A stretch of DNA of 63,645 bases, filler included, from Collodictyon triciliatum (taxonomy: Eukaryota): NCBI GenBank assembly GCA_043381765.1. It is 12 parts of 12 records of this genome, joined end to end, with 100 filler letters (N's around TTAATTAATTAA, not from the genome) between each part and the next. Parts side by side here need not be neighbours in the genome. Positions count along the whole stretch, not along the records: positions 21,587 to 26,885 come from JBHJMP010005318.1; 11 more parts are not named here. One strand, given 5' to 3'. Positions 17,235-52,899 of the stretch are shown one piece after another. How positions within the stretch are numbered: the stretch's first letter is position 1; the number at the start of each line of letters is the position of its first letter. Both the position numbers and the translations under genes were made by a program. Under the pieces are notes generated by a model. The model had not been told where the DNA came from and ran no database searches. It was given only the letters and a program-made list of their open reading frames with translations.

Positions 17235-19136
17235 TTACTTTTGCTTGGGGAATCGCCCCAAGGCTTCGCCTAGCTTAAGCTTCTGGCCAGGCTTCACCGT
17301 GAACTCGTATTCGGGTGCCTCAAATACCAAAACAACAGTGGAGCCCAAATTGAACGACGCGATTTCATCTCCCTTGAGAAAGGCTAGGTTGTTGTATGTA
17401 CGCAAACTTGACGGCTGTTTATACTGACTGTCCTTATTGGTCTCGATTGACTGTAAAGTTGTGACGTTAGTGGCCATGAGCCGCGAATGATAGAAGTAAA
17501 AAAGGAGAAGTTAAAATGTGTCTCTAAACAGGTTATAGTGGGTTTTAAGGCTTCTCACAGGGTCAAATTTGATTCCTATTGATCCGACATTATAGGCCCC
17601 GACTGCAGTCATGGAGAAATAGCCGTGCTCCCATGTCCCGCTCAATACAACACGCTCGTTGAGAACAAACAGGCTCTTGACCAACTCCAGGACTCTGGGA
17701 GCCACAGAAAAGAGCTCACCTGGACAGAAAATAAAGACAGGAGGAGTGATAAATAAATAAATAAAAAAGGATTGTCTATGTGGCACTTAGAATGGATTGC
17801 ATACTGATGTGGTATAAGGAACATCAAACCAACGAAGGATTGTAGGTTGTAGTATTTTTTTTTCAGCACGTGCAGGATACTATACATATGCATATGTGGT
17901 GTTGTTTAGATAGTCCTGAGTACCGCTGAAATGGCGAGTGCGCTGAATCTTCCAGTCCACGGGCGTGTGGATGCGATGGTAGTCTCCTGGGGCGAGGTAA
18001 ATAATGCAGTGATACAGCTTGTTTCCTGGGCGCAACGGGGCAAAGTTTTGTGGTACTTCCCCAAGGAACTGATCCATAGGATAAGTGATTCCTTTAACCT
18101 GCTCGATCTTGTTTCCATCAACCAAACCAAAGTGAAGCACACGGCCATCCACTGGGGATATCTAGTCAAAAGTGATGAGCCAGTTCAGAACAGGCCACTC
18201 CATTACAGTAACAATCACACACGCATACGTGTGTGTATTTGAATAAATGCTCGCAATTGCATCGCGTTTTAAAATGATCGTATAGATTCAATATCAAGTC
18301 CATACAAGCACTGATGACATATCAAGAATAAGGATATAAGAGTATAAGCCGACCAGCAGACATATACATGAAAGCTGCCAAACTCACAATGCTCTCGGAC
18401 GACAGAGGACGTACTCCACTTTTCAATTCGCGGGCGAAAAACTCTGCGAGGTTCTTGTACTCTTCCAACGACTGTGCTTTCATTTCAGATAGGTTACAGC
18501 CAAATGCCCGGGTCCATCCTTCATAAACCGGCGCACGCATCCAAACAGGCAGAGTCAAATTGTGGACATATCCCCACGCCCGCGAAAACGCACGGGAGGG
18601 GAGCTTCTTGAGTGCTTGGACCTATTAATTCGTTTATATTCCCTCTTTTACACGAGCATTTAAACGGAAAAGGTGCAGATATGCCATAGCAAAAGAAATA
18701 AATATATAAAAGAGAGATAGGCTATATTGGTATATGTTAAGGACGAGGAAAGAATGGAAAATATCGTCTGCTTAACGTGTTTCAATAAAAAAAAAGATTA
18801 TTTAATTATAGGGGAAAGGAAGAAAAAAAAACTACCACTAATAATGATATGTACTTTCATGAACTCTACCTTCCAGCTGTCCGGCTCAAAAGGCGGGACA
18901 TTGTCAGCAGTCCAGACATAATAGGCCGAGCCAAAGACAGCAACGCTTCCAGCAGAAAAGACGAGGCGAAGAATCTTCCTTGGCGAGGCGCCTCCAGGAG
19001 GCTTTTCTGAGTATGTGCGGATAATCGATGCAGGTGTGCCCAAAGGAAGTGGCCAGCGAGGACGCAACGAGGCAGGCGCAGAGCGAGCAGCCTGGCAGAG
19101 TTCGCGGCCGAAACCAAGCAGCGGGCGAGTAAGCAT
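17235..19136 (-). CDS. PISD: Phosphatidylserine decarboxylase, mitochondrial type (Psd1), multi-exon
   Basis: Arg-rich presequence and [86 protein letters not shown] (LGST self-cleavage motif). Confidence 0.96.
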
Positions 19137-19527
19137 CTGTGATGATTGAGCGCAGGCTGTGCAATGAGGGAGTATAACAAATAAATAAATGATATTATTT
19201 TTATTTTTAACAAGAAAAAAAAGTTCAAGTCAGCCCCTTCTTGTGTTGTGTTGTTGCGTTTCTTGGCAGGAAGGATGATCGAGACAAAAAGCAAGCCACG
19301 CTCTGCGTAATGATGCTATATGTGGAATCATGAACTTTTGTGCATCATGACCATTGTGGATTTTACTCAAATTCCATTTTACCACAGCGCGGGAAGCAGG
19401 GTTGACAAATCTTTTTGTTTTCTTTTTCGCGTGGCTCTAGGGTCGGTGTCTGCTTTACTAGTCACAAGAAGTGTAGGCGGTTGTCTGTGTGTGCGTGGGT
19501 AGAATGAGTCTTGAACGCCTTTTCTGT

Positions 19528-21704: not shown

Positions 21705-24700
21705 TTAGTTACCATTTGTTTTTTTTGATGAAACGGAGGGTTCTCTTGAAGTTTGAACCGGCTTGAATATTGTAGAATTGATGCCTCCCTGGAATGACGG
21801 TGTAAGGGAGAATTCATGTCGTCCACTTTGATTCCCAGGTATGTGTTCATTATTGGCAGAGTTCGTTGTCATGAAGGTAGGGGAGTTTGAAGATGGCATA
21901 TCCATAATATCTCCAAGCTTCGTATTAGAATTTTGAAATGTGTCGGTAGTAGAAGGTAAGAGTGAATTGATTTTACCATTATATGATTCAGTGATTAGTT
22001 TGAGAGGAGATTTAGAGGCGTTCTCATAAGTTATACCTCCCACCCCAGATTGTGTTTTCCTAAAAGTAAGGTTTTCAGATACTTTTTCGGAAAAATATTC
22101 TCCTTTATTTGATTTTGTAGGTGAAAATATCGATGTTTTGCTAGGTTCATTCATTTCTAAACTATCGATAACTGTCTGACTTTTTTGGAACCTCTCAGAC
22201 AAAGACATTCTATTTGTTTCGATATAACCATCATCTGATAATGTTCCCTCAAAATCAGGTGAATTATTTTGCAAGAAGGATTCCATACGGTCAGCCTCAG
22301 ATACTGTTTCTACGAATGTGTGTGACATTGTATAATCTATCGATTTGATGGATCCTTCAAAACTAGCAGTGCTAATTTCAAACAAAGGAGTTATCGCTTC
22401 ATTCTTTTCAATGGCTTGATTACTAGATGGGGTTGTAGATAATTCTGGTGTCCGATGATTTTCCTCTGTTTTTATGATTCCTTGCACCGATTTTGTTGGT
22501 AGATAGATCCGTGAGTTTGAAATGAGGTCGTTATTGATATCTTCAGGTCCAGAGATGGTATTTGAATACTGTAGAGTATTTGGCATTTTATTCGTCTCTA
22601 GGGCTCCATTTAATGATGGAGTTGTTTCAAATAGTCTACTATCGCTGGCGGGATTGCTTATTTTTCCAAAAAATGTCTCCGTCGCCAAAAATTGGGGCGA
22701 ATTTAGAGATCCACTAGGAGTTTGTGTCTGAGCTTGGGTATTCGATTGACTTTCACACTTTACGAAATGTATATAATCTGATGGCTTCATACTTCCTTTA
22801 TGATCAAGGTTGAATATAACATCACGATCACTTGAAGTCATTCCTAGGCTATCGTATGTGGTCATGTGTACCGCTACTCCAACAACTTCGTGCTCTATTG
22901 TCCGACCTGTGACAATTAATGTCCCGTTATTCATGTTCTCTGCTGTTACTCTGATTCCTTCGTTTGTAGTTATTTTGTTCAATCCTCTTTCGATATTCAT
23001 ATCTCGATTTAATGAAGTCAGGAATATCAATTCATAAGATGTTTGTATGCTAGAGTAGCTCATATCAGCTGTTTGTGAATGCACCAGCACTTGAAGATTG
23101 TAGTAGCTTGTGCATGAGGTACTTAATTCTAAGCCAAAGAATCTCCATTTGTTCGCGAGGACTCGAATCAGATAAACTGCGTCCTGTATTTGTGGCTCTC
23201 CGTTTCTGTCAACATCAAGAACTTGGAGCTGTGCCGAGCCCACTTGTGTGGTTATCAGCCCTGCGAGGTACCGAAGTGTGAATTGCACATCGGCCACAGA
23301 AAACTCGCAGTCCCCGTCCGTATTACCTTTAATGGTCCACGGGTCGCACGGCCATGTTCTGGATTGGGCTTCCGTTTCCATCCTTTCCGCGTATTTGTTG
23401 AACAACTCAGACACCTTGCTGCTAATGTCTGTACGTGTCTGAGAAGACAATCCTACCCTAAGCGTAGTACTTCCTGCAACAATTGCTCTTGACTGTCCTA
23501 GTCCCAGCGCCGTACCTATCGGAGAAGGTGTTGCTTCATTCGATAGCATCTTGCTGATAATTCCCATAAAATGTGTTATTCCATTATGTTTGCCTTTGAC
23601 CACGAGTTTTACAATCTCGATAATATTTCTGGAGGTGCTTGTTACACTTGTTGCTGCAACTATACGAACCACACCAGGTGGGTCGTTCAGAGTCACTTCG
23701 AGCTGACCACCAGGCCAGCTTGCACCAACAGAGTGTGAAGTAATTTCAACGATTTTGTCGTCATAGAACAGACTCATATCAATGCTGCCCAGGAATTTGC
23801 CCCCTGAATTGACACGCACAGGGATGGTCAAACTGGCCCCTTTATTTATTCCACTAAGCGCTAGACCACTCATGCTTCCTATATCTACGTCTCCAATGTC
23901 TGGTATAAGATTTCCATATGTGCTCGATGCATGTGATGCTCCAGTGCACGTAGACGCTGCTATCTTGACTACTCCGCGCGAGTTGGAGTGCAAAGTGGCA
24001 TAACCATTCTTGTTAATAGATATCGAACTGGCGTCGTCGCTCAAATAATGAAGTAAATCTTTAATAGTGTGAGCTGCTGGGTGCTTTGAGCCATCTTGCA
24101 GAACAATACTCGAAGCAAACAGCTGAGATGATATTCCTTGGATACCTTGGTATGTTTGTGGGAATGAAGTAGAAATAGAGACGGCTCTTATTTCATCATC
24201 AATGACCTCAACTACTAGGTGTCCTGATTCGCCCAAATAAGTCGCTGTTACTGTTTCGTTGCCATATCTCAACCCAGTGGGTACCAGAATGTTTTTACTT
24301 TCGATTTCGAGCCCAGGGACTTCCGAGTTGGCCGTCATAAACTTTGTGGAGGTATCGATCGTGATATCAAATGTGCTTGAATCTGACAGAATTAAGGACA
24401 ATCCTAATTTTGCTCTTTGGAAGACACTAGTGCATTCATACCGGTGCAGTCTAACCAGAGACAACAGGGAGGAGCCTGTATATTCTGGATATGGACTTGC
24501 AGTTACCTTAAGAGACAAAAATCCCAAAACCGTGACTTGAATCCTGCCTTGCAAGCCAGGGGCGTTTTCAACCGTGGCGATGACCGCGGCAACACCTATT
24601 CCCTTCCCTGTGGCAACCACACAGACCCTAACGATCTCACTATACTCGCTGTCTTTTCTGACTTGTATAATGTCCTTGTTATCTCCCACCGCAACATCAA

Positions 24701-26885
24701 ACTTTGTTCTTGGGTCCAAGGTGTAATCTTTATGCTTCCCATTCTCAAAAAGACATATCACTTGTATGCGACTTGTTGTAGGAATACCTGCTTTTGAAGC
24801 TAGATTATTGGTGTCTGTGATTTTGTCGTTGGAGAGGGTTATACTAATTGCAACTATTTTGGGTAATTTCAAATCTACAAGCCCAAGTCCCGAAGCGTAG
24901 ATTTTGCCACATGAGCTCCATTTCACATCAACAAAATACCCACATCCGTTTGAGACAGATTGGACTCTTAGTGGATTGGTAGTCACCGTTACAGAGGAAG
25001 TTATTGATGTCATAGATAATCCGTCTGACTCTTGAAGCAGCTCTCTCGAGCCGTCAGATAGCAAAGCATACGCACTAACATAACCAGTCTTGTCCTCCAT
25101 GTCAAAGTTTTGCACGATTGAGACCTTCAGACCAGTAGTTGTTGCTGGTGTCAGTAACTCGACTTGTTCCACAGCACTGATGGTAACATCTGTGAATATG
25201 ATGGGTTCTATCCTCACTATGCTCACGTGGTCATCCGAAACCGTAAAAGACAGCGAGTTCGACGGGACTTTGGTTGCTGAAACGATCGCAGACCCGGATC
25301 GAATACCTGTCACAGTGTTGTTTCTGCATAGAACAATACTGGGCTCGGACGAATGAAGAGAAATCAACTCAGTCACGTCAGCTTCAAAGCTGTCTGGCCC
25401 ACTGACAAATTTTGCACTTGCGCTGATACGGCTGGTCTGGTATTTTGAACCGGAGCAATCTGATAGCTTTACTTTATCTATTCGGTTTAGAGTGGTATTC
25501 TGGGTCCATAAATTTATAGGTAGCTCTGGATGCCATACTCGGATGGTGGTTGTTGCATCTTGGTATGAAATTATCACATATGAAGGAGTTGAGAACGTTT
25601 GGTCGTCAAGCTGAGCAGTGCATTTCTCCATCTTCAATATATCTGGGTGGGAGCTTGTACACGTGGCCAGGTATGTGATGTCGCTTGGATTCTGGAACTC
25701 ATAGTACTCTAGAACTTTCACAGGTATTTGGAGCTTCATTTTGTTGATCGCAGCGGTATTGATTACATGATGTTGCTTGGCTCCAATGAAGTGGCCACTT
25801 ATCGTGTCTTGTGCGATTTGGATGTACCCAATATCTCCAGAATGCGCTCCATCAAACACAATTCCGAGAGATGAGTCGCCCACTATAGGTACATTTTTAA
25901 TGTCTGTCATTTGCTTGATAATCAAGCTGACAGGTCCACTAGGCTGTGAGGGTGTCTTATTTGTCAACCACGTAATTGTAGCAATATTAAATGACCCTGT
26001 GACAGATGACTCGCTGACACCACTTTGCCGTGTCCACACTATGGATGCACTGCTTTTTTGGATATTTGTGGCACCCGAGAACTTGCCATCGCCCATAATC
26101 TTTGATATCGACATCACAGCTTCGGGAATGTTGATAACTATGTTGATACCTTCCAGCACTTTGCCGTTGGTATAGGCCGTTAGCGTTGTTGTGAATGAAG
26201 AACTAGGCAAAACTGGGTGCTGTGGAAGCTGCATTTTTACACCAGCCACAGGATTTTCGCCATAAAATGGGGTTGCCATCATGACAGCTGATCTGAGAGA
26301 CACGGTTCTGTTAGCATACATCACGGTTGGGGTGATCATGGTCTGTCTGGATGAGAAGGCGTATCCAGGAATAGTGATTATAGTCAAGCAAGGAGTGGAC
26401 CCGTCATAAGTGCAATGATACTTTAATCCTGGCATCTCGACAGTTGACACATATATCTGTCCACCTCTGTTTACCGTCTCTCCATTGCTTCCCACAAGCC
26501 AAGCGCGTACCTTGAGAATGGGTAAGGACTGATAAATCGACGTGGACAACGTGATACCAGATGGCCAAGACGGCATTGCCTTTGACACATTGAGAGATAA
26601 TGGGCCCGATAATACACCCGCGAATGATGATGACACTGATACAGATGATATAGCGTCACTCAAACCCGTCACGTTCCTTTTAAACGACCAGTGCTGTAAA
26701 TTTTGACTAGTTGGTGACGAGAAACCACCATTGGTTGGAGTAAACATCAACGGAATTTCGACGACGGAAAAGACGGGGCCACATATACCGCAGGAATTAA
26801 GAGAATTCCCTATGGGACATGATGTGTTACTTGTTATTGTCAATGTCATTGATGGCGATGGCGATGGCGATGGCGATGGCGATAG
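21705..26885 (-). CDS. Giant TMEM132-like surface protein fragment: cohesin-like domain, Ig-like repeats, second cohesin, dockerin, shared domain, S/T stalk; open at 5' end, probably spliced onward at 3' end
   Basis: Frame is open to the contig end through an (SP)n repeat. TMEM132-like motifs: VINTAAI..IPVKV, CTSSHPDILK, IRVWHPELPI, YQTSRISASAKF, DVTELI. Cohesin-like: LTIPVRVNSGGKFLGSIDMSLFYDDKIVEI. Dockerin: GNTDGDCEFSVADVQFTLRYLAG..DVDRNGEPQIQDAVYLIRVL. A possible GT donor (G|gtaact) lies just before the stop. Confidence 0.85.
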   Translation of the reverse strand, partial: LSPSPSPSPSPSMTLTITSNTSCPIGNSLNSCGICGPVFSVVEIPLMFTPTNGGFSSPTSQNLQHWSFKRNVTGLSDAISSVSVSSSFAGVLSGPLSLNVSKAMPSWPSGITLSTSIYQSLPILKVRAWLVGSNGETVNRGGQIYVSTVEMPGLKYHCTYDGSTPCLTIITIPGYAFSSRQTMITPTVMYANRTVSLRSAVMMATPFYGENPVAGVKMQLPQHPVLPSSSFTTTLTAYTNGKVLEGINIVINIPEAVMSISKIMGDGKFSGATNIQKSSASIVWTRQSGVSESSVTGSFNIATITWLTNKTPSQPSGPVSLIIKQMTDIKNVPIVGDSSLGIVFDGAHSGDIGYIQIAQDTISGHFIGAKQHHVINTAAINKMKLQIPVKVLEYYEFQNPSDITYLATCTSSHPDILKMEKCTAQLDDQTFSTPSYVIISYQDATTTIRVWHPELPINLWTQNTTLNRIDKVKLSDCSGSKYQTSRISASAKFVSGPDSFEADVTELISLHSSEPSIVLCRNNTVTGIRSGSAIVSATKVPSNSLSFTVSDDHVSIVRIEPIIFTDVTISAVEQVELLTPATTTGLKVSIVQNFDMEDKTGYVSAYALLSDGSRELLQESDGLSMTSITSSVTVTTNPLRVQSVSNGCGYFVDVKWSSCGKIYASGLGLVDLKLPKIVAISITLSNDKITDTNNLASKAGIPTTSRIQVICLFENGKHKDYTLDPRTKFDVAVGDNKDIIQVRKDSEYSEIVRVCVVATGKGIGVAAVIATVENAPGLQGRIQVTVLGFLSLKVTASPYPEYTGSSLLSLVRLHRYECTSVFQRAKLGLSLILSDSSTFDITIDTSTKFMTANSEVPGLEIESKNILVPTGLRYGNETVTATYLGESGHLVVEVIDDEIRAVSISTSFPQTYQGIQGISSQLFASSIVLQDGSKHPAAHTIKDLLHYLSDDASSISINKNGYATLHSNSRGVVKIAASTCTGASHASSTYGNLIPDIGDVDIGSMSGLALSGINKGASLTIPVRVNSGGKFLGSIDMSLFYDDKIVEITSHSVGASWPGGQLEVTLNDPPGVVRIVAATSVTSTSRNIIEIVKLVVKGKHNGITHFMGIISKMLSNEATPSPIGTALGLGQSRAIVAGSTTLRVGLSSQTRTDISSKVSELFNKYAERMETEAQSRTWPCDPWTIKGNTDGDCEFSVADVQFTLRYLAGLITTQVGSAQLQVLDVDRNGEPQIQDAVYLIRVLANKWRFFGLELSTSCTSYYNLQVLVHSQTADMSYSSIQTSYELIFLTSLNRDMNIERGLNKITTNEGIRVTAENMNNGTLIVTGRTIEHEVVGVAVHMTTYDSLGMTSSDRDVIFNLDHKGSMKPSDYIHFVKCESQSNTQAQTQTPSGSLNSPQFLATETFFGKISNPASDSRLFETTPSLNGALETNKMPNTLQYSNTISGPEDINNDLISNSRIYLPTKSVQGIIKTEENHRTPELSTTPSSNQAIEKNEAITPLFEISTASFEGSIKSIDYTMSHTFVETVSEADRMESFLQNNSPDFEGTLSDDGYIETNRMSLSERFQKSQTVIDSLEMNEPSKTSIFSPTKSNKGEYFSEKVSENLTFRKTQSGVGGITYENASKSPLKLITESYNGKINSLLPSTTDTFQNSNTKLGDIMDMPSSNSPTFMTTNSANNEHIPGNQSGRHEFSLTPSFQGGINSTIFKPVQTSREPSVSSKKTNGN

Positions 26886-46465: not shown

Positions 46466-47202
46466 TTAGAGGCGGATGTCCACGGTCTTCTGGCAGTTCT
46501 CTCTACCGTAGCAGCCCTGCTGGGTGGTGGGGGCAAAGCCAATGAGGCGGGTGTTGAAGCCGTTGCGCTCAGCGATGGCGACGAGCTCGTTGTAGATCTC
46601 GGGGGAGAGGGAGGGTGTGCGGGCAAGGATCCACAGGGCCAGGCGGCAGGGCTCACCGACGAGGACGTAGCCGTAGTCGCGGTCTGGGCCGTAGGTGATG
46701 ATGTAGTAGTTGGGGGTGGTGGTCGGGTTGTCGGTGAAGCTGACGGCGAGCTCTCCAGGCTTGGTGGGGTCCAGCTGGTCAGCGCGGCCGAAGATGACTT
46801 CGAGTTCTCCGTCGACGGTCTTCTTGCGGCATTCGTTGCGGACCTCCACATAGGGGCCGTTGCGGTCCGAGGTGACGGTGTAGTTGGCGTTGGTGCACAC
46901 GCAGTCACGCTGGAAGGTGGAGCGGACAAACGTGGTGGTGGCAATCTCGTACCAGCGGCCTGTCGATGGAGGGGAGGAGGTGTTGGTCAGTTCCGACATG
47001 CAGCGCGTTACGGGATTATATGGCGAGTGCGCGGGTTGGCTATTCATGTGTTTGTATGTGTGTGTATGTGTGTTTGCTTACCAGAGTAACGGTTGAGGTC
47101 GAGCTCCGAGACTGAGTTGAGGGGGGTTGTGCAGAACTGGGCGAAGGCCGCTTGCGAGAAGACGGCGACGGCGAAGAGGGCGATGACGGCAGTACGGGAC
47201 AT
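46466..47202 (-). CDS. Secreted lipocalin (ApoD/Blc/TIL-like); exons 47202-47082 and 46959-46466
   Basis: Signal peptide MSRTAVIALFAVAVFSQAAFA; LDLNRYSG|RWYEIA (GxWYEI motif); DYGYVLVGEP..LWILARTPSL. Confidence 0.93.
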
Positions 47203-51162: not shown

Positions 51163-52214
51163 TCACATTCCACACAGCTCGAGTCTTTTTAAAAATACAT
51201 TCTTCGCAAATTTGTAGAAGGAAACATCTTCTTTGTTGTATTTCAAGAATATCTCATAATCTACATCTGTAGCATTCAGTTGACTTGAATTTCCCACGTT
51301 CGATCTTCTGCCATCATATTCCTAAGGTATCAATCGTGAGACATGAATAAAGGCAAACTTAAATGACCACTTACAATTGAAAAAAAGTCGGGATAGATCT
51401 TGCGCAAAAGCTGGGTAGTTTTATACATTTCTTCAGTAATTCCTACAACACTAAAAGTAGCAATTAGTCTGACTTTGGAAATGTATAGCGAAACTGAATC
51501 CTTTTTTCTGCACTCTTCCTGTAAGCCACAGAAGAACAACATTTGATGATTTGATACTTGTTTTGAGTCATCCTCTAAGGAGGAATGGCACATGTTATTA
51601 AAGAAATTACATTGAAAGTGTTTGAATGAGACAAGCCTTGAAAATGGCTCCCTTACCACACTGAAGTAGGAAATGTCCCCATACCCTGTGAGGGTATGAA
51701 AACTGTTTATAGGTAAATAAGAAACATAGTGTGTGTGGCTGTCAACTACAACTGGGGCCATATTTAACATTTCCTTAGCCCTCACTTTAATTTCTTCACT
51801 GTTGATGTCGAGTTGGTATGGATTCTTAATTGGGTGAGTAAAGGTGTTATTCTCCAAAGCTGTATAAGAAAGATGCTTAAATGACATCATTGTCGCTTGA
51901 GAAGCTAAGGAGTTCTTGGATATGTAGTCCATAACAGTTCTGGAACCGCATTTTGGAACCCGATTATAATATATTATGGACGGCCTCTGGGACTGACACC
52001 CGGATATTAATTTTATAAGCTCGTCATCGGAATATATAGTCTGTAGGTTTACGATATCGTGGTCGGTGTCGACAATTTCACTCACCAATTTCTTTTTGTT
52101 ACTATTATACTCATTATAAGGCGTAGGAGTTGCCAATAACTTGTTTGGGATGAGGCAGGTAATTGTCAGGATTAAAACGACTTGTAAAACAATGATATAA
52201 GCAAATGACGCCAT
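51163..52214 (-). CDS. Golgi type II sulfotransferase, heparan sulfate 2-O/uronyl 2-sulfotransferase-like (exons 52214-51375, 51321-51163)
   Basis: N-terminal signal-anchor; 5'-PSB loop IYYNRVPKCGSRT; 3'-PB SVVREPFSRLVS; FFCG; VVGITEEM; terminal exon NKEDVSFYKFA. One in-phase 53-nt GT-AG intron. Confidence 0.88.
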
Positions 52215-52899
52215 GGGATGGTGCTACGATCGTACAGCTTGCGACTTATTCGGATGAGATAAACCTGTAAAATCTTTATAAATTGGATGAGATAGTGGAT
52301 GAATTTACTTGGTGTTGCGCAGTTTATATCTAGCGAAGCGAGTACATATTCGTTACAGGAAGTTTATGCAACAACTTGAAAGGGTAAGTCACTAATTCTA
52401 CACTATCTTACATGTCCCTAGATTCTATCAAGATATTCAAGGTTGTTCGATAAAATTTAATGATTCTTGGGCGGGACCGTCCTCTTTGTGATTGGTGAAT
52501 GGTAACATATCGTTCAATTTGTATAATTAAGTATACTACTAATAAATTTGAATTATTAGTATTCGAATTTCCGATAATTTCCCTACAATATGGACAATAT
52601 TTACATGTTACGGGTTTTCTATATCATGGACTTAGTATGACCCAAATAGGTAAGCGGAGGCATGCTTACCAAAGTCTTTTAAAAGAATTCATAGGGAATT
52701 TAGTGATTTATTCGATGGAGTATAACAATGCGGCGTAAATGTTGAATTTTAACACGAATATCTGTCACATCGTAGCTCTCAGTTTTTGTGGTTAGACATC
52801 AAGAGTAAGTAACTGTTAGAATAGTGTTTGACTGAGTCGTACAATAGACAAACTTGAGGACGATGAACTTGAGCATGGTTTATAGATAGATAAAATTGA

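What the first reader, a model, noticed from the sequence alone, without database searches (positions are those of the whole stretch)
23140..23845. Adjacent cohesin and complete type I-like dockerin inside a eukaryotic TMEM132-like surface protein
Seen: a cohesin-like beta-sandwich (LTIPVRVNSGGKFLGSIDMSLFYDDKIVEI..GVVRIV..IEIVKLVVKG, ~23455-23845), a short linker, then a duplicated Ca-loop/helix (GNTDGDCEFSVADVQFTLRYLAG; DVDRNGEPQIQDAVYLIRVL, ~23140-23330). Established: cohesin-dockerin is the high-affinity Ca-dependent pair of bacterial cellulosomes; animal TMEM132 has a cohesin-like domain but no dockerin; scattered non-cellulosomal eukaryotic copies have been reported. Inference: both partners in one non-enzymatic extracellular protein could allow head-to-tail polymerisation or trans cell-cell binding, a eukaryotic cohesin-dockerin coat or adhesion system, and may reveal the ancestral ligand of the TMEM132 cohesin.
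Basis: partly seen in the sequence, partly recalled or inferred. Interest (0 to 1): 0.85.

Follow-up and report, generated by a model that had tools for sequence, protein, structure and literature searches.

The report
Self-clasping cohesin-dockerin surface protein module
A protist surface protein related to animal TMEM132 carries a real bacterial-type cohesin next to a real dockerin that most likely snap onto each other, and in most eukaryotic relatives (though not in this copy) the link between them carries protease cut sites, suggesting a 'cut but still held' clasp on cell-surface adhesion proteins.

Summary
Observation confirmed. A type I-like cohesin fold (23900-23451; Z 11.6 to solved cohesins) and a two-Ca-loop dockerin (23351-23136) lie in a partial 1726-aa eukaryotic ORF. 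They end a conserved ~1,150-aa cassette: CohA, six BIG domains, CohB, dockerin, Ig-like X. Its first half is the TMEM132 ectodomain. The cassette occurs in Diphylleia (with REJ-GAIN), Salpingoeca, Prymnesium, Cymbomonas, cadherin-bearing proteins, and 22 of 107 genomes of one bacterial class (mostly Myxococcota records). The dockerin co-varies with its own neighbouring CohB (top coupling, Gly/Phe versus Val/Ala), not with the TMEM132-type CohA. Not found in the literature searched: 103 of 156 eukaryote-type CohB-dockerin linkers carry furin-type sites (about 90-fold enriched) and 0 of 15 bacterial-type linkers do. The window's own linker lacks them. Best reading: a Ca-dependent clasp that holds a convertase-cut ectodomain on its membrane part. 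Binding and cleavage are inferred, not shown. The scan had already noted self-paired cohesin-dockerin in this genome and in another one.

The parts
21705..26885 (-). Partial ORF, 1726 aa, filling contig 5 (21587-26885); 5' end lost at an (SP)n microsatellite; no TM segment
   Evidence: 37% identity over 1380 columns to Diphylleia rotans P0003
26241..26723 (-). Region at the position of the TMEM132 'conserved region' (aa 55-215); assigned by position only
   Evidence: aligns to P0003; no Pfam hit
25800..26240 (-). CohA (aa 216-362): first cohesin-fold domain, at the TMEM132 cohesin position; no dockerin coupling above background
   Evidence: profile-profile to CohB 98%, E 2.3e-13; directly precedes Ig_TMEM132_4th
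23901..25799 (-). Six BIG/Ig-like domains (aa 363-995); the first three match TMEM132 domains 4-6 in the family
   Evidence: Pfam; AF2 all-beta, pLDDT 88.8; family profile hits BIG repeats of a teneurin-like protein, E 1.9e-16
23451..23900 (-). CohB (aa 996-1145): type I-like cohesin; V1076 (23660-23658) couples with dockerin A1244
23352..23450 (-). CohB-dockerin linker; helical in the model; no R-x-K/R-R or KR/RR site here, unlike most eukaryote-type relatives
23136..23351 (-). Dockerin (aa 1179-1250): Ca loop 1 at 23324-23289, Ca loop 2 at 23216-23181, three helices; probable staple disulfide C1180 (23348)-C1193 (23309)
   Evidence: Cys co-occurrence
22761..23135 (-). X domain (aa 1251-1375): conserved Ig-like beta-sandwich after the dockerin
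   Evidence: best structural matches only Z 7-8
21708..22760 (-). S/T/N/E-rich low-complexity tail, 351 aa, where P0003 has PKD/REJ-GAIN-TM; may be spliced at a GT at 21712
   Evidence: RNA-library contig X1 identical at 22606-22756
26987..31248 (+). Separate contig 6: C-terminal part of a paralogue: second half of a dockerin, X, PKD/REJ (28190-29479), intron 29760-29935, GAIN/GPS (30475-30591), R/S-rich stalk, TM and cytoplasmic tail

Best explanation
The pair is the end of a conserved extracellular rod: CR-CohA-BIG x6-CohB-linker-dockerin-X. SHOWN: both folds, the fixed order, family-wide co-variation of CohB with its own dockerin, and strong enrichment of convertase-type sites in eukaryote-type linkers. 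INFERRED step 1: the Ca-loaded dockerin docks on the CohB of the same cassette, on the strand 3/5/6 face that type I cohesins use (the face assignment is recalled). INFERRED step 2: in most eukaryotic members a furin/kexin-type protease cuts the linker, usually twice, in the secretory pathway. The N-terminal rod then stays on the membrane-anchored part only through the cohesin-dockerin bond. This is a 'cut but held' clasp, working like the Notch S1/HD, SEA or GAIN junctions, releasable by force or Ca loss. Bacterial-type copies have a 12-19 aa uncut linker. The window copy keeps the coupled Val/Ala pair but has lost the canonical cut sites. It is probably a permanently tethered version, or is cut by another protease (about 0.3).
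For: 196 of 215 CohB hits are followed by a dockerin, in 141 of 151 proteins. mfDCA on 196 units ranks CohB V1076-Doc A1244 first of all pairs, with S1034-D1190 5th and P1069-R1248 14th; the states are Gly/Phe 92 and Val, Leu or Ile/Ala 36. On 136 full cassettes the maximum MI-APC Z with the dockerin is 16.2 for CohB and 4.7-5.8 for CohA and BIG1-6; mfDCA agrees, 10.2 against 5.7. A1244 aligns to chain position 57 of 1OHZ_B, in the C-terminal dockerin helix. Own-cassette concordance is 68 of 73, and 19 of 30 multi-cassette proteins mix both classes. The AF2 model of CohB-linker-Doc-X has pTM 0.90, i.e. one rigid unit (it uses the same family alignment, so it is not independent). R-x-K/R-R occurs in 103 of 156 eukaryote-type linkers and KR/RR in 143 of 156, against 0 of 15 bacterial-type linkers, 11 of 7000 same-length background windows, and 12% of composition-shuffled linkers. 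Density is 18.3 against 0.20 per 1000 aa; 0 of 120 post-X windows have the motif; 116 of 152 unique linkers have two or more basic clusters, the first a median 10 residues after the conserved V-A-G motif at the start of the last cohesin strand.
Against: The window's own linker has no R-x-K/R-R and no KR/RR; Diphylleia P0003 has one KR, and L012 has none. 13 of 152 unique eukaryote-type linkers have no dibasic site. The phylogeny-controlled test of the Gly/Phe switch is not significant: 7 independent pairs, 4.3 the same way, 0 opposite, p 0.125. Co-variation cannot separate cis from homotypic trans binding. The bacterial linker may be too short for the same cis geometry (inference). The window dockerin is below the Pfam cut-off and lacks the Ser/Thr pair at loop positions 10-11 of canonical type I dockerins (that motif is recalled). 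'Eukaryote-type' was assigned by tree and features; only 5 of these search-hit representatives have a named eukaryotic source.
Confidence: 0.65

Rival explanations
1. Trans or head-to-tail binding: CohB of one molecule binds the dockerin of another, building a surface polymer or a cell-cell bond. After cleavage, the middle pieces of multi-cassette proteins would be dockerin...cohesin building blocks.
For: Co-variation fits homotypic trans binding equally well. Multi-cassette proteins carry up to 4 cassettes. The bacterial linker is only 12-19 aa and may not allow the cis geometry. Some proteins carry CohB repeats without a following dockerin (P0087, P0096, P0133), which could catch free dockerins.
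Against: Tethered partners favour cis binding. Cassette-specific residue codes (68 of 73 own-cassette concordant) would keep the original order rather than favour open polymers. The single-chain model is one compact unit, pTM 0.90.
Confidence: 0.17
2. The pair is a purely structural, never-opened Ca-stiffened joint in a long stalk. The basic linker is only a by-product of precursor processing, with no release or sensing role.
For: The window copy, L012, the bacterial copies and a subgroup of cadherin-bearing cassettes have no cut site. The dockerin is stapled and packed against the X domain.
Against: Cut sites are tightly placed and about 90-fold enriched across distant lineages. Diphylleia-type copies that mostly lack them carry a GAIN/GPS cleavage module instead.
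Confidence: 0.1
3. The dockerin is the ligand of CohA, the cohesin at the TMEM132 position, and so reveals the ancestral TMEM132 ligand.
For: CohA is a true homologue of CohB (98%, E 2.3e-13). P0114 has a natural CohA-BIG1-3-basic linker-dockerin-X cassette without CohB.
Against: CohA-dockerin coupling (MI Z 5.3; DCA 5.7) is at the level of the BIG domains, while CohB gives 16.2 and 10.2. CohA is the least conserved domain of the cassette, with mean entropy 2.95 against 2.54 for CohB.
Confidence: 0.05
4. A cellulosome-like scaffold that recruits dockerin-bearing enzymes to the protist surface.
For: The folds are closest to type I cellulosomal modules. Multi-cohesin proteins without dockerins exist in the family.
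Against: No glycoside hydrolase domain was found in the window protein, P0003, P0004 or 16 scanned relatives. 198 of 207 dockerin hits follow a CohB (the search was seeded with the cassette, so free dockerin enzymes could be missed). The genome is not held.
Confidence: 0.03

Closest known systems
TMEM132 family, and the TMEM132-like core of choanoflagellate and sponge cadherins (coherins, lefftyrins, hedglings); PMC6030884
   Same: CR-cohesin-BIG x3 order, with Pfam TMEM132 domains 4-6 hit across the family. The paper states the five-domain core is present in those cadherins. Many hits here carry cadherin repeats.
   Different: The cassette runs on with three more BIG domains, a second cohesin, a dockerin and an X domain. 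The paper says dockerin homologues are not detectable in vertebrates and does not describe this extension in the text read; its Fig. S2 could not be seen. The window protein has no cadherin repeats. The cassette also occurs in a CRuM, a haptophyte, a green alga and bacteria.
Type I cohesin-dockerin pair of cellulosomes (e.g. 1OHZ, 2CCL, 6KGC)
   Same: Cohesin fold at Z 11.3-11.6; duplicated Ca loops and three helices; family profile E 4.8e-8 to the Xyn10B dockerin.
   Different: Both partners lie in one chain with a cleavable linker; no enzymes; a Cys at loop-1 position 6 with a staple disulfide; no Ser/Thr 10-11 pair (canonical motif recalled); an Ig-like X module after the dockerin.
Polycystin-1-like REJ-GAIN proteins
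   Same: Contig 6 and Diphylleia P0003 have PKD/REJ, GPS and one TM segment.
   Different: The N-terminal part is the TMEM132-cohesin-dockerin cassette, and there is a single TM segment rather than a channel-like region. The window ORF itself has an S/T-rich tail instead.
Cut-but-held receptor junctions: Notch S1/heterodimerisation domain, SEA, GAIN (from own knowledge)
   Same: Works-like analogy only: cleavage in the secretory pathway, with the two pieces held non-covalently.
   Different: Unrelated fold. The holding force would come from a Ca-dependent cohesin-dockerin bond, known in bacteria for high rupture forces (>120 pN, as quoted in PMC6030884).

Membership tests
Cohesin (PF00963), type I-like | Score above the Pfam gathering cut-off | tested here: met
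   27.8 vs 24.1 bits on 23409-23888; not reported in the full-length scan
Cohesin (PF00963), type I-like | Cohesin beta-sandwich superposable on solved cohesins | tested here: met
   Z 11.6, rmsd 2.3 A, 133 aa; top 18 rows are cohesin entries; Foldseek agrees
Cohesin-dockerin pair | Ca-dependent high-affinity binding | not testable with these tools
   Needs ITC or native gel; only co-variation is available
Dockerin type I (PF00404) | Score above the Pfam gathering cut-off | tested here: not met
   15.0 vs 22.9 bits, E 0.028; 3 of 16 relatives pass on whole-protein score
Dockerin type I (PF00404) | Two 12-residue Ca loops, each followed by a helix, with a middle helix | tested here: met
   Asp/Asn at 1, 3, 5, 12 in both loops; three helices in the models; family profile hits more than 15 solved dockerin-containing sequences, best E 4.8e-8
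Dockerin type I (PF00404) | Structural superposition on solved dockerins | tested here: inconclusive
   The lists were filled by the cohesin and X domains; the dockerin was not modelled alone
Dockerin type I (C. thermocellum specificity class) | Ser/Thr pair at loop positions 10-11 (motif recalled; seen in the 1OHZ_B alignment) | tested here: not met
   Val/Ala and Ile/Gln in the window; variable in the family
TMEM132 | CR-cohesin-three BIG domains in order | tested here: inconclusive
   Ig_TMEM132_4th 26.6 vs 27 bits and a weak 5th; P0003 passes the 4th at 38.6; CR has no profile hit
TMEM132 | TM segment after BIG3 with PP1 and WIRS cytoplasmic motifs | tested here: not met
   BIG3 is followed by BIG4-6, CohB, dockerin; no TM in the 1726-aa frame
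Coherin (cadherin with cohesin) | Extracellular cadherin repeats | tested here: not met
   No cadherin hit in the window ORF, contig 6 or full-length P0003; the window ORF lacks its N terminus
Cellulosome scaffoldin | Dockerin-bearing hydrolases in the same organism | not testable with these tools
   No genome held; no hydrolase domain in the scanned family members
Convertase-cut clasp (proposed here) | R-x-K/R-R or KR/RR in the CohB-dockerin linker of the window protein | tested here: not met
   None in the 48-aa stretch, whereas 103 and 143 of 156 eukaryote-type linkers have them

The most novel reading that the evidence does not exclude
The ancestral TMEM132-type ectodomain ended in a convertase-activated cohesin-dockerin clasp, a further kind of 'cut but held' surface junction beside GAIN, SEA and Notch HD. 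Giant sponge-like and choanoflagellate cadherins would be cut into several dockerin...cohesin modules with cassette-specific codes. These could be released by force or Ca loss, or swapped between molecules and neighbouring cells. The cassette crossed between eukaryotes and one class of Myxococcota-type bacteria, and animal TMEM132 is a truncation that lost the clasp.
Probability: 0.35. Interest if true: 0.85.

Novelty: new variant of a known kind. Interest (0 to 1): 0.6.

Why it matters
It gives a concrete, bench-testable mechanism for the cohesin domains of pre-metazoan adhesion proteins, which have had no known partner. The partner is the dockerin next door, and the bond probably replaces a cut peptide backbone. 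A mechanically strong, Ca-switchable clasp on choanoflagellate and sponge-type cadherins would bear on how early cell adhesion was made and released. It also redirects the TMEM132 question: the cohesin that animals kept is not the one that pairs with this dockerin. The bacterial copies give small, easily expressed models, and natural Gly/Phe versus Val/Ala pairs could supply orthogonal protein connectors. For the window copy itself the gain is smaller, because it is partial and lacks the cut sites.

Tried and rejected
Complex prediction (CohA + CohB + 2 Ca + dockerin) gave 'no answer'. Scores were 0.59/0.51/0.53; controls with an unrelated partner scored 0.61 and 0.51, and the control with CohB replaced scored 0.01; the alignments were not used. 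It is not counted either way.

Donor of the gene: trees put the window protein with myxobacterial-type rows (FastTree 93; IQ-TREE quick 95*; the careful search did not finish). The AU test did not reject all 20 bacterial rows as one clade (p 0.595, and the held tree was better by 5.3 lnL), so no claim of a myxobacterial donor or of two transfers is made. That tree used 54 hand-picked rows of 185.

Single-sequence search of the PDB with CohB-dockerin found no cohesin or dockerin. Foldseek with the 1160-aa model gave only Ig-array matches. A profile search for longer proteins returned one unrelated BIG-repeat protein. Pairwise BLAST of CohA against CohB found nothing; only profile-profile did.

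The idea that contigs 5 and 6 form one gene or a head-to-head cluster was rejected: they are separate contigs joined by an artificial linker, and they overlap in domain content at 32% identity.

Two GTDB loci in a 'Bacteroidetes' bin (L010, L012) were read as misbinned eukaryotic contigs and left out of the bacterial count.

The phylogenetically independent test of the Gly/Phe switch was not significant; its tree included the two trait columns.

Expression is not shown: only short contig pieces of RNA libraries match, and uncovered parts prove nothing.

The contact role of dockerin Leu56 and cohesin Leu83 could not be confirmed from a paper. The host organism was not identified; other contigs show ordinary eukaryotic exons (79 frames scanned, mostly picked from the 166 listed).
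Full report
WINDOW AND GENE. The window is not one chromosome stretch. N44-linker-N44 gaps recur every ~5.39 kb, so it is a chain of ~5.3-kb contigs. Other contigs hold short exons of ordinary eukaryotic genes (phosphatidylserine decarboxylase, V-ATPase a, alpha-mannosidase, P4-ATPase). The finding lies in contig 5 (21587-26885), filled by one stop-free minus-strand frame of 1726 aa that begins inside an (SP)n repeat at the contig end and has no TM segment. No genome is held. Near-identical pieces (151-318 nt, 0-1 differences) occur in contigs of two lake-water RNA libraries (X1, X5), of run X9 (RNA only guessed) and of a probable DNA run (X2, covering 23199-23391); 4 of 13 listed runs were laid. 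The sequence is real; transcription is not strictly shown.

OBSERVATION. Cohesin: Pfam 27.8 bits against a cut-off of 24.1 on the isolated piece. An AF2 model of CohB-linker-dockerin-X (385 aa, pLDDT 90.3, pTM 0.90) matches type I cohesins best (Z 11.6, rmsd 2.3 A, 133 aa; the top 18 rows are cohesin entries; Foldseek agrees). Dockerin: below the Pfam cut-off alone (15.0 vs 22.9), but with two intact Ca loops and three helices. A 53-sequence family profile hits the Xyn10B dockerin (2CCL_B E 4.8e-8, 1OHZ_B 3.6e-7) and many others. The ESM Atlas returns cohesin/dockerin clusters at 0.95.

THE CASSETTE. A search of 1.84 billion representatives with aa 961-1381 found 407 proteins at E<=0.001; the best 150 were analysed. 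They share the order CohA-BIG1-6-CohB-dockerin-X. 196 of 215 CohB hits are followed by a dockerin, in 141 of 151 proteins including the window's, and 136 complete CohA-to-dockerin cassettes were recovered; single proteins hold up to four. CohA is homologous to CohB (98%, E 2.3e-13) and sits directly before Ig_TMEM132_4th, where PMC6030884 places the TMEM132 cohesin. Named eukaryotic carriers are Diphylleia rotans (P0003, the closest, 37% over 1380 columns), Prymnesium parvum, Cymbomonas tetramitiformis (2) and Salpingoeca rosetta. Of 22 representatives looked up, 6 had a named organism (these 5 and one Myxococcales MAG). Partner domains vary: cadherin repeats, EGF plus PTPase, TSP1, TNFR, ankyrin, and PKD/REJ-GPS-TM in P0003. 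Contig 6, next in the window but not shown to be adjacent in the genome, is the C-terminal part of such a REJ-GAIN paralogue. It begins in the second half of a dockerin and has a GT-AG intron at 29760-29935.

BACTERIAL COPIES. A GTDB scan gave 20 loci. 18 are high-GC (0.59-0.76) contigs. By record title 12 of these are Myxococcota or deltaproteobacteria, 3 'Enterobacteriaceae' (at GC 0.64-0.66, probably mislabelled), 2 'Proteobacteria' and 1 an unnamed 9.3-Mb chromosome. The other 2 look like misbinned Diphylleia-type contigs. 22 of 107 genomes of the GTDB class of G001 carry CohB-dockerin-X at E<=1e-15. In a 401-genome sample of the phylum there were 16 carriers, all among those class-level handles. 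The ORFs reach 14,117 aa and often begin with a lipoprotein-like signal. Trees group the window protein with P0003, L010 and L012 (100) and near one bacterial group, but bacterial monophyly is not rejected (AU p 0.595). One transfer between the domains is enough, and its direction is open; the narrow bacterial range would fit bacteria as recipients (inference).

WHICH COHESIN PAIRS. On 136 cassettes the strongest dockerin coupling is with CohB (V1076-A1244, Z 16.2); CohA and the six BIG domains reach only 4.7-5.8. mfDCA on 196 CohB-dockerin-X units ranks this pair first of all pairs, above intra-domain contacts, with S1034-D1190 fifth and P1069-R1248 fourteenth. The states are knob-and-hole: Gly/Phe 92, Val, Leu or Ile/Ala 36. 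With CohA in the same model the result holds (10.2 vs 5.7). V1076 lies in cohesin strand 6 and S1034 in strand 3, on the face that binds dockerins in type I complexes (recalled). A1244 aligns to the C-terminal helix end of 1OHZ_B. 162 of 169 tree rows are concordant, with 12 changes of each trait, but only 7 independent pairs exist on well-supported branches (4.3 the same way, 0 opposite, p 0.125). In 30 multi-cassette proteins, 19 mix both classes and each dockerin follows its own cohesin in 68 of 73 cassettes; the 5 of 54 cross-cassette figure is low partly by construction.

THE LINKER. Of 171 linkers with both anchors found (of 196 units), 156 are eukaryote-type and 15 bacterial-type. The split was assigned by hand from sequence features and later matched the tree and the GTDB loci. 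R-x-K/R-R occurs in 103 of 156, KR/RR in 143 of 156, and neither in any of the 15, which are 12-19 aa long. Background windows have the motif in 11 of 7000 and shuffled linkers in 12%. Density is 18.3 per 1000 aa in linkers against 0.20 elsewhere; 0 of 120 windows after X have it; 116 of 152 unique linkers have two or more basic clusters; and the following residue is mostly S, A, Q, E, N, G or D, as convertases prefer (own knowledge). The loop-1 Cys co-occurs with an unpaired upstream Cys in 153 of 171 cases and is absent with none or an even number in 23 of 28. That disulfide lies on the dockerin side of the cut and would not tie the halves together. Against the reading: the window linker has no such site, L012 has none, P0003 has one KR, and a subgroup of cadherin-bearing cassettes has none.

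MECHANISM. Shown: folds, order, co-variation, motif enrichment. Inferred: the dockerin clasps its own CohB, and in most eukaryotes a convertase removes the linker, so the rod is held on the membrane part by the clasp alone and can be released by force or Ca loss (0.65). Rivals: trans or polymer binding (0.17), a purely structural joint (0.10), ligand of CohA (0.05), an enzyme scaffold (0.03). The window copy probably keeps the clasp uncut.

WHAT IS KNOWN. PMC6030884 was read in parts 1-2 of 3 of its main text, reference passages and supplement legend passages ('dockerin' 0 times there). Its figures, including Fig. S2 with the premetazoan architectures, were not visible and may already show the second cohesin or the dockerin. 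The paper describes CR-cohesin-3xBIG in animals and in coherins, lefftyrins and hedglings, and notes no dockerin in vertebrates. Nichols 2012, Peer 2009 and the 1OHZ paper were not held; I recall, unverified, that the first two report cohesin and dockerin modules in Monosiga. Ten full-text searches (listings only) showed no paper on a cleaved cohesin-dockerin linker, on the extended cassette, or on myxobacterial TMEM132-like proteins; subscription journals are not covered. Two earlier AI notes of this scan reached a similar 'self-paired cohesin-dockerin' reading, one in this genome; they are leads, not support.

VERDICT. The feature is real. A eukaryotic cohesin beside a dockerin is a variant of the known premetazoan TMEM132-like cassette, not a new kind of system. 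The cognate pairing with the second cohesin, the convertase-type linker and the bacterial carriers are the additions. Interest 0.6.

Noticed in passing
window 5300-59322, every ~5.39 kb: Eleven identical 100-bp linkers (N44, a stop-rich 12-mer, N44) join contigs of 5,285-5,300 bp: the window is a concatenation of similar-length contigs, many ending in microsatellites.
   Followed up: yes
window 26987-31248 (+): Paralogue fragment: half dockerin, X, PKD/REJ, intron 29760-29935, GAIN/GPS with an intact H-L-T site, a long Arg/Ser-repeat juxtamembrane stalk, TM and a Pro-rich tail. The R/S-rich extracellular stalk is unusual.
   Followed up: partly
P0114, aa 6672-7450: Natural short cassette CohA-BIG1-3-basic linker-dockerin-X, without BIG4-6 and CohB: a TMEM132-length core followed by a dockerin.
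   Followed up: partly
P0087, P0096, P0133: Proteins with 2-5 CohB-type cohesins and no following dockerin, scaffoldin-like; source unnamed.
   Followed up: partly
G001:C1:2832123-2833238, G002:C12:558536-559648, G063:C183:31981-33093: The cassette sits in giant Cys-rich bacterial ORFs of 11,000-14,000 aa in one GTDB class.
   Followed up: partly
L010, L012: Contigs in a 'Bacteroidetes' pond bin are Diphylleia-type eukaryotic sequence (L010 nearly identical to P0003): contamination in a GTDB genome.
   Followed up: partly
L004, L005, L007: Records titled 'uncultured Enterobacteriaceae' have GC 0.64-0.66 and their proteins group with Myxococcota rows; the titles are probably wrong.
   Followed up: partly
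P0040, P0083, P0143 and the 27-row clade: Haptophyte and green-algal carriers mostly use dibasic RR followed by Leu, Gln or Ser rather than R-x-K/R-R. All named carriers are phagotrophs or mixotrophs (own knowledge), a possible link to prey capture.
   Followed up: no
P0059: Cassette fused to EGF repeats and a protein-tyrosine phosphatase domain, i.e. a receptor phosphatase.
   Followed up: no
window 11299-13011 (-) and 40737-42143 (+): Long open frames (570 and 468 aa) without any Pfam hit above cut-off.
   Followed up: no
window 51330-52223 (-); 46469-47077 (-); 17238-19229 (-); 57792-59051 (-): Sulfotransferase (PF03567), lipocalin (PF08212), intron-split phosphatidylserine decarboxylase and GH38 alpha-mannosidase exons: ordinary genes on unrelated contigs.
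   Followed up: no
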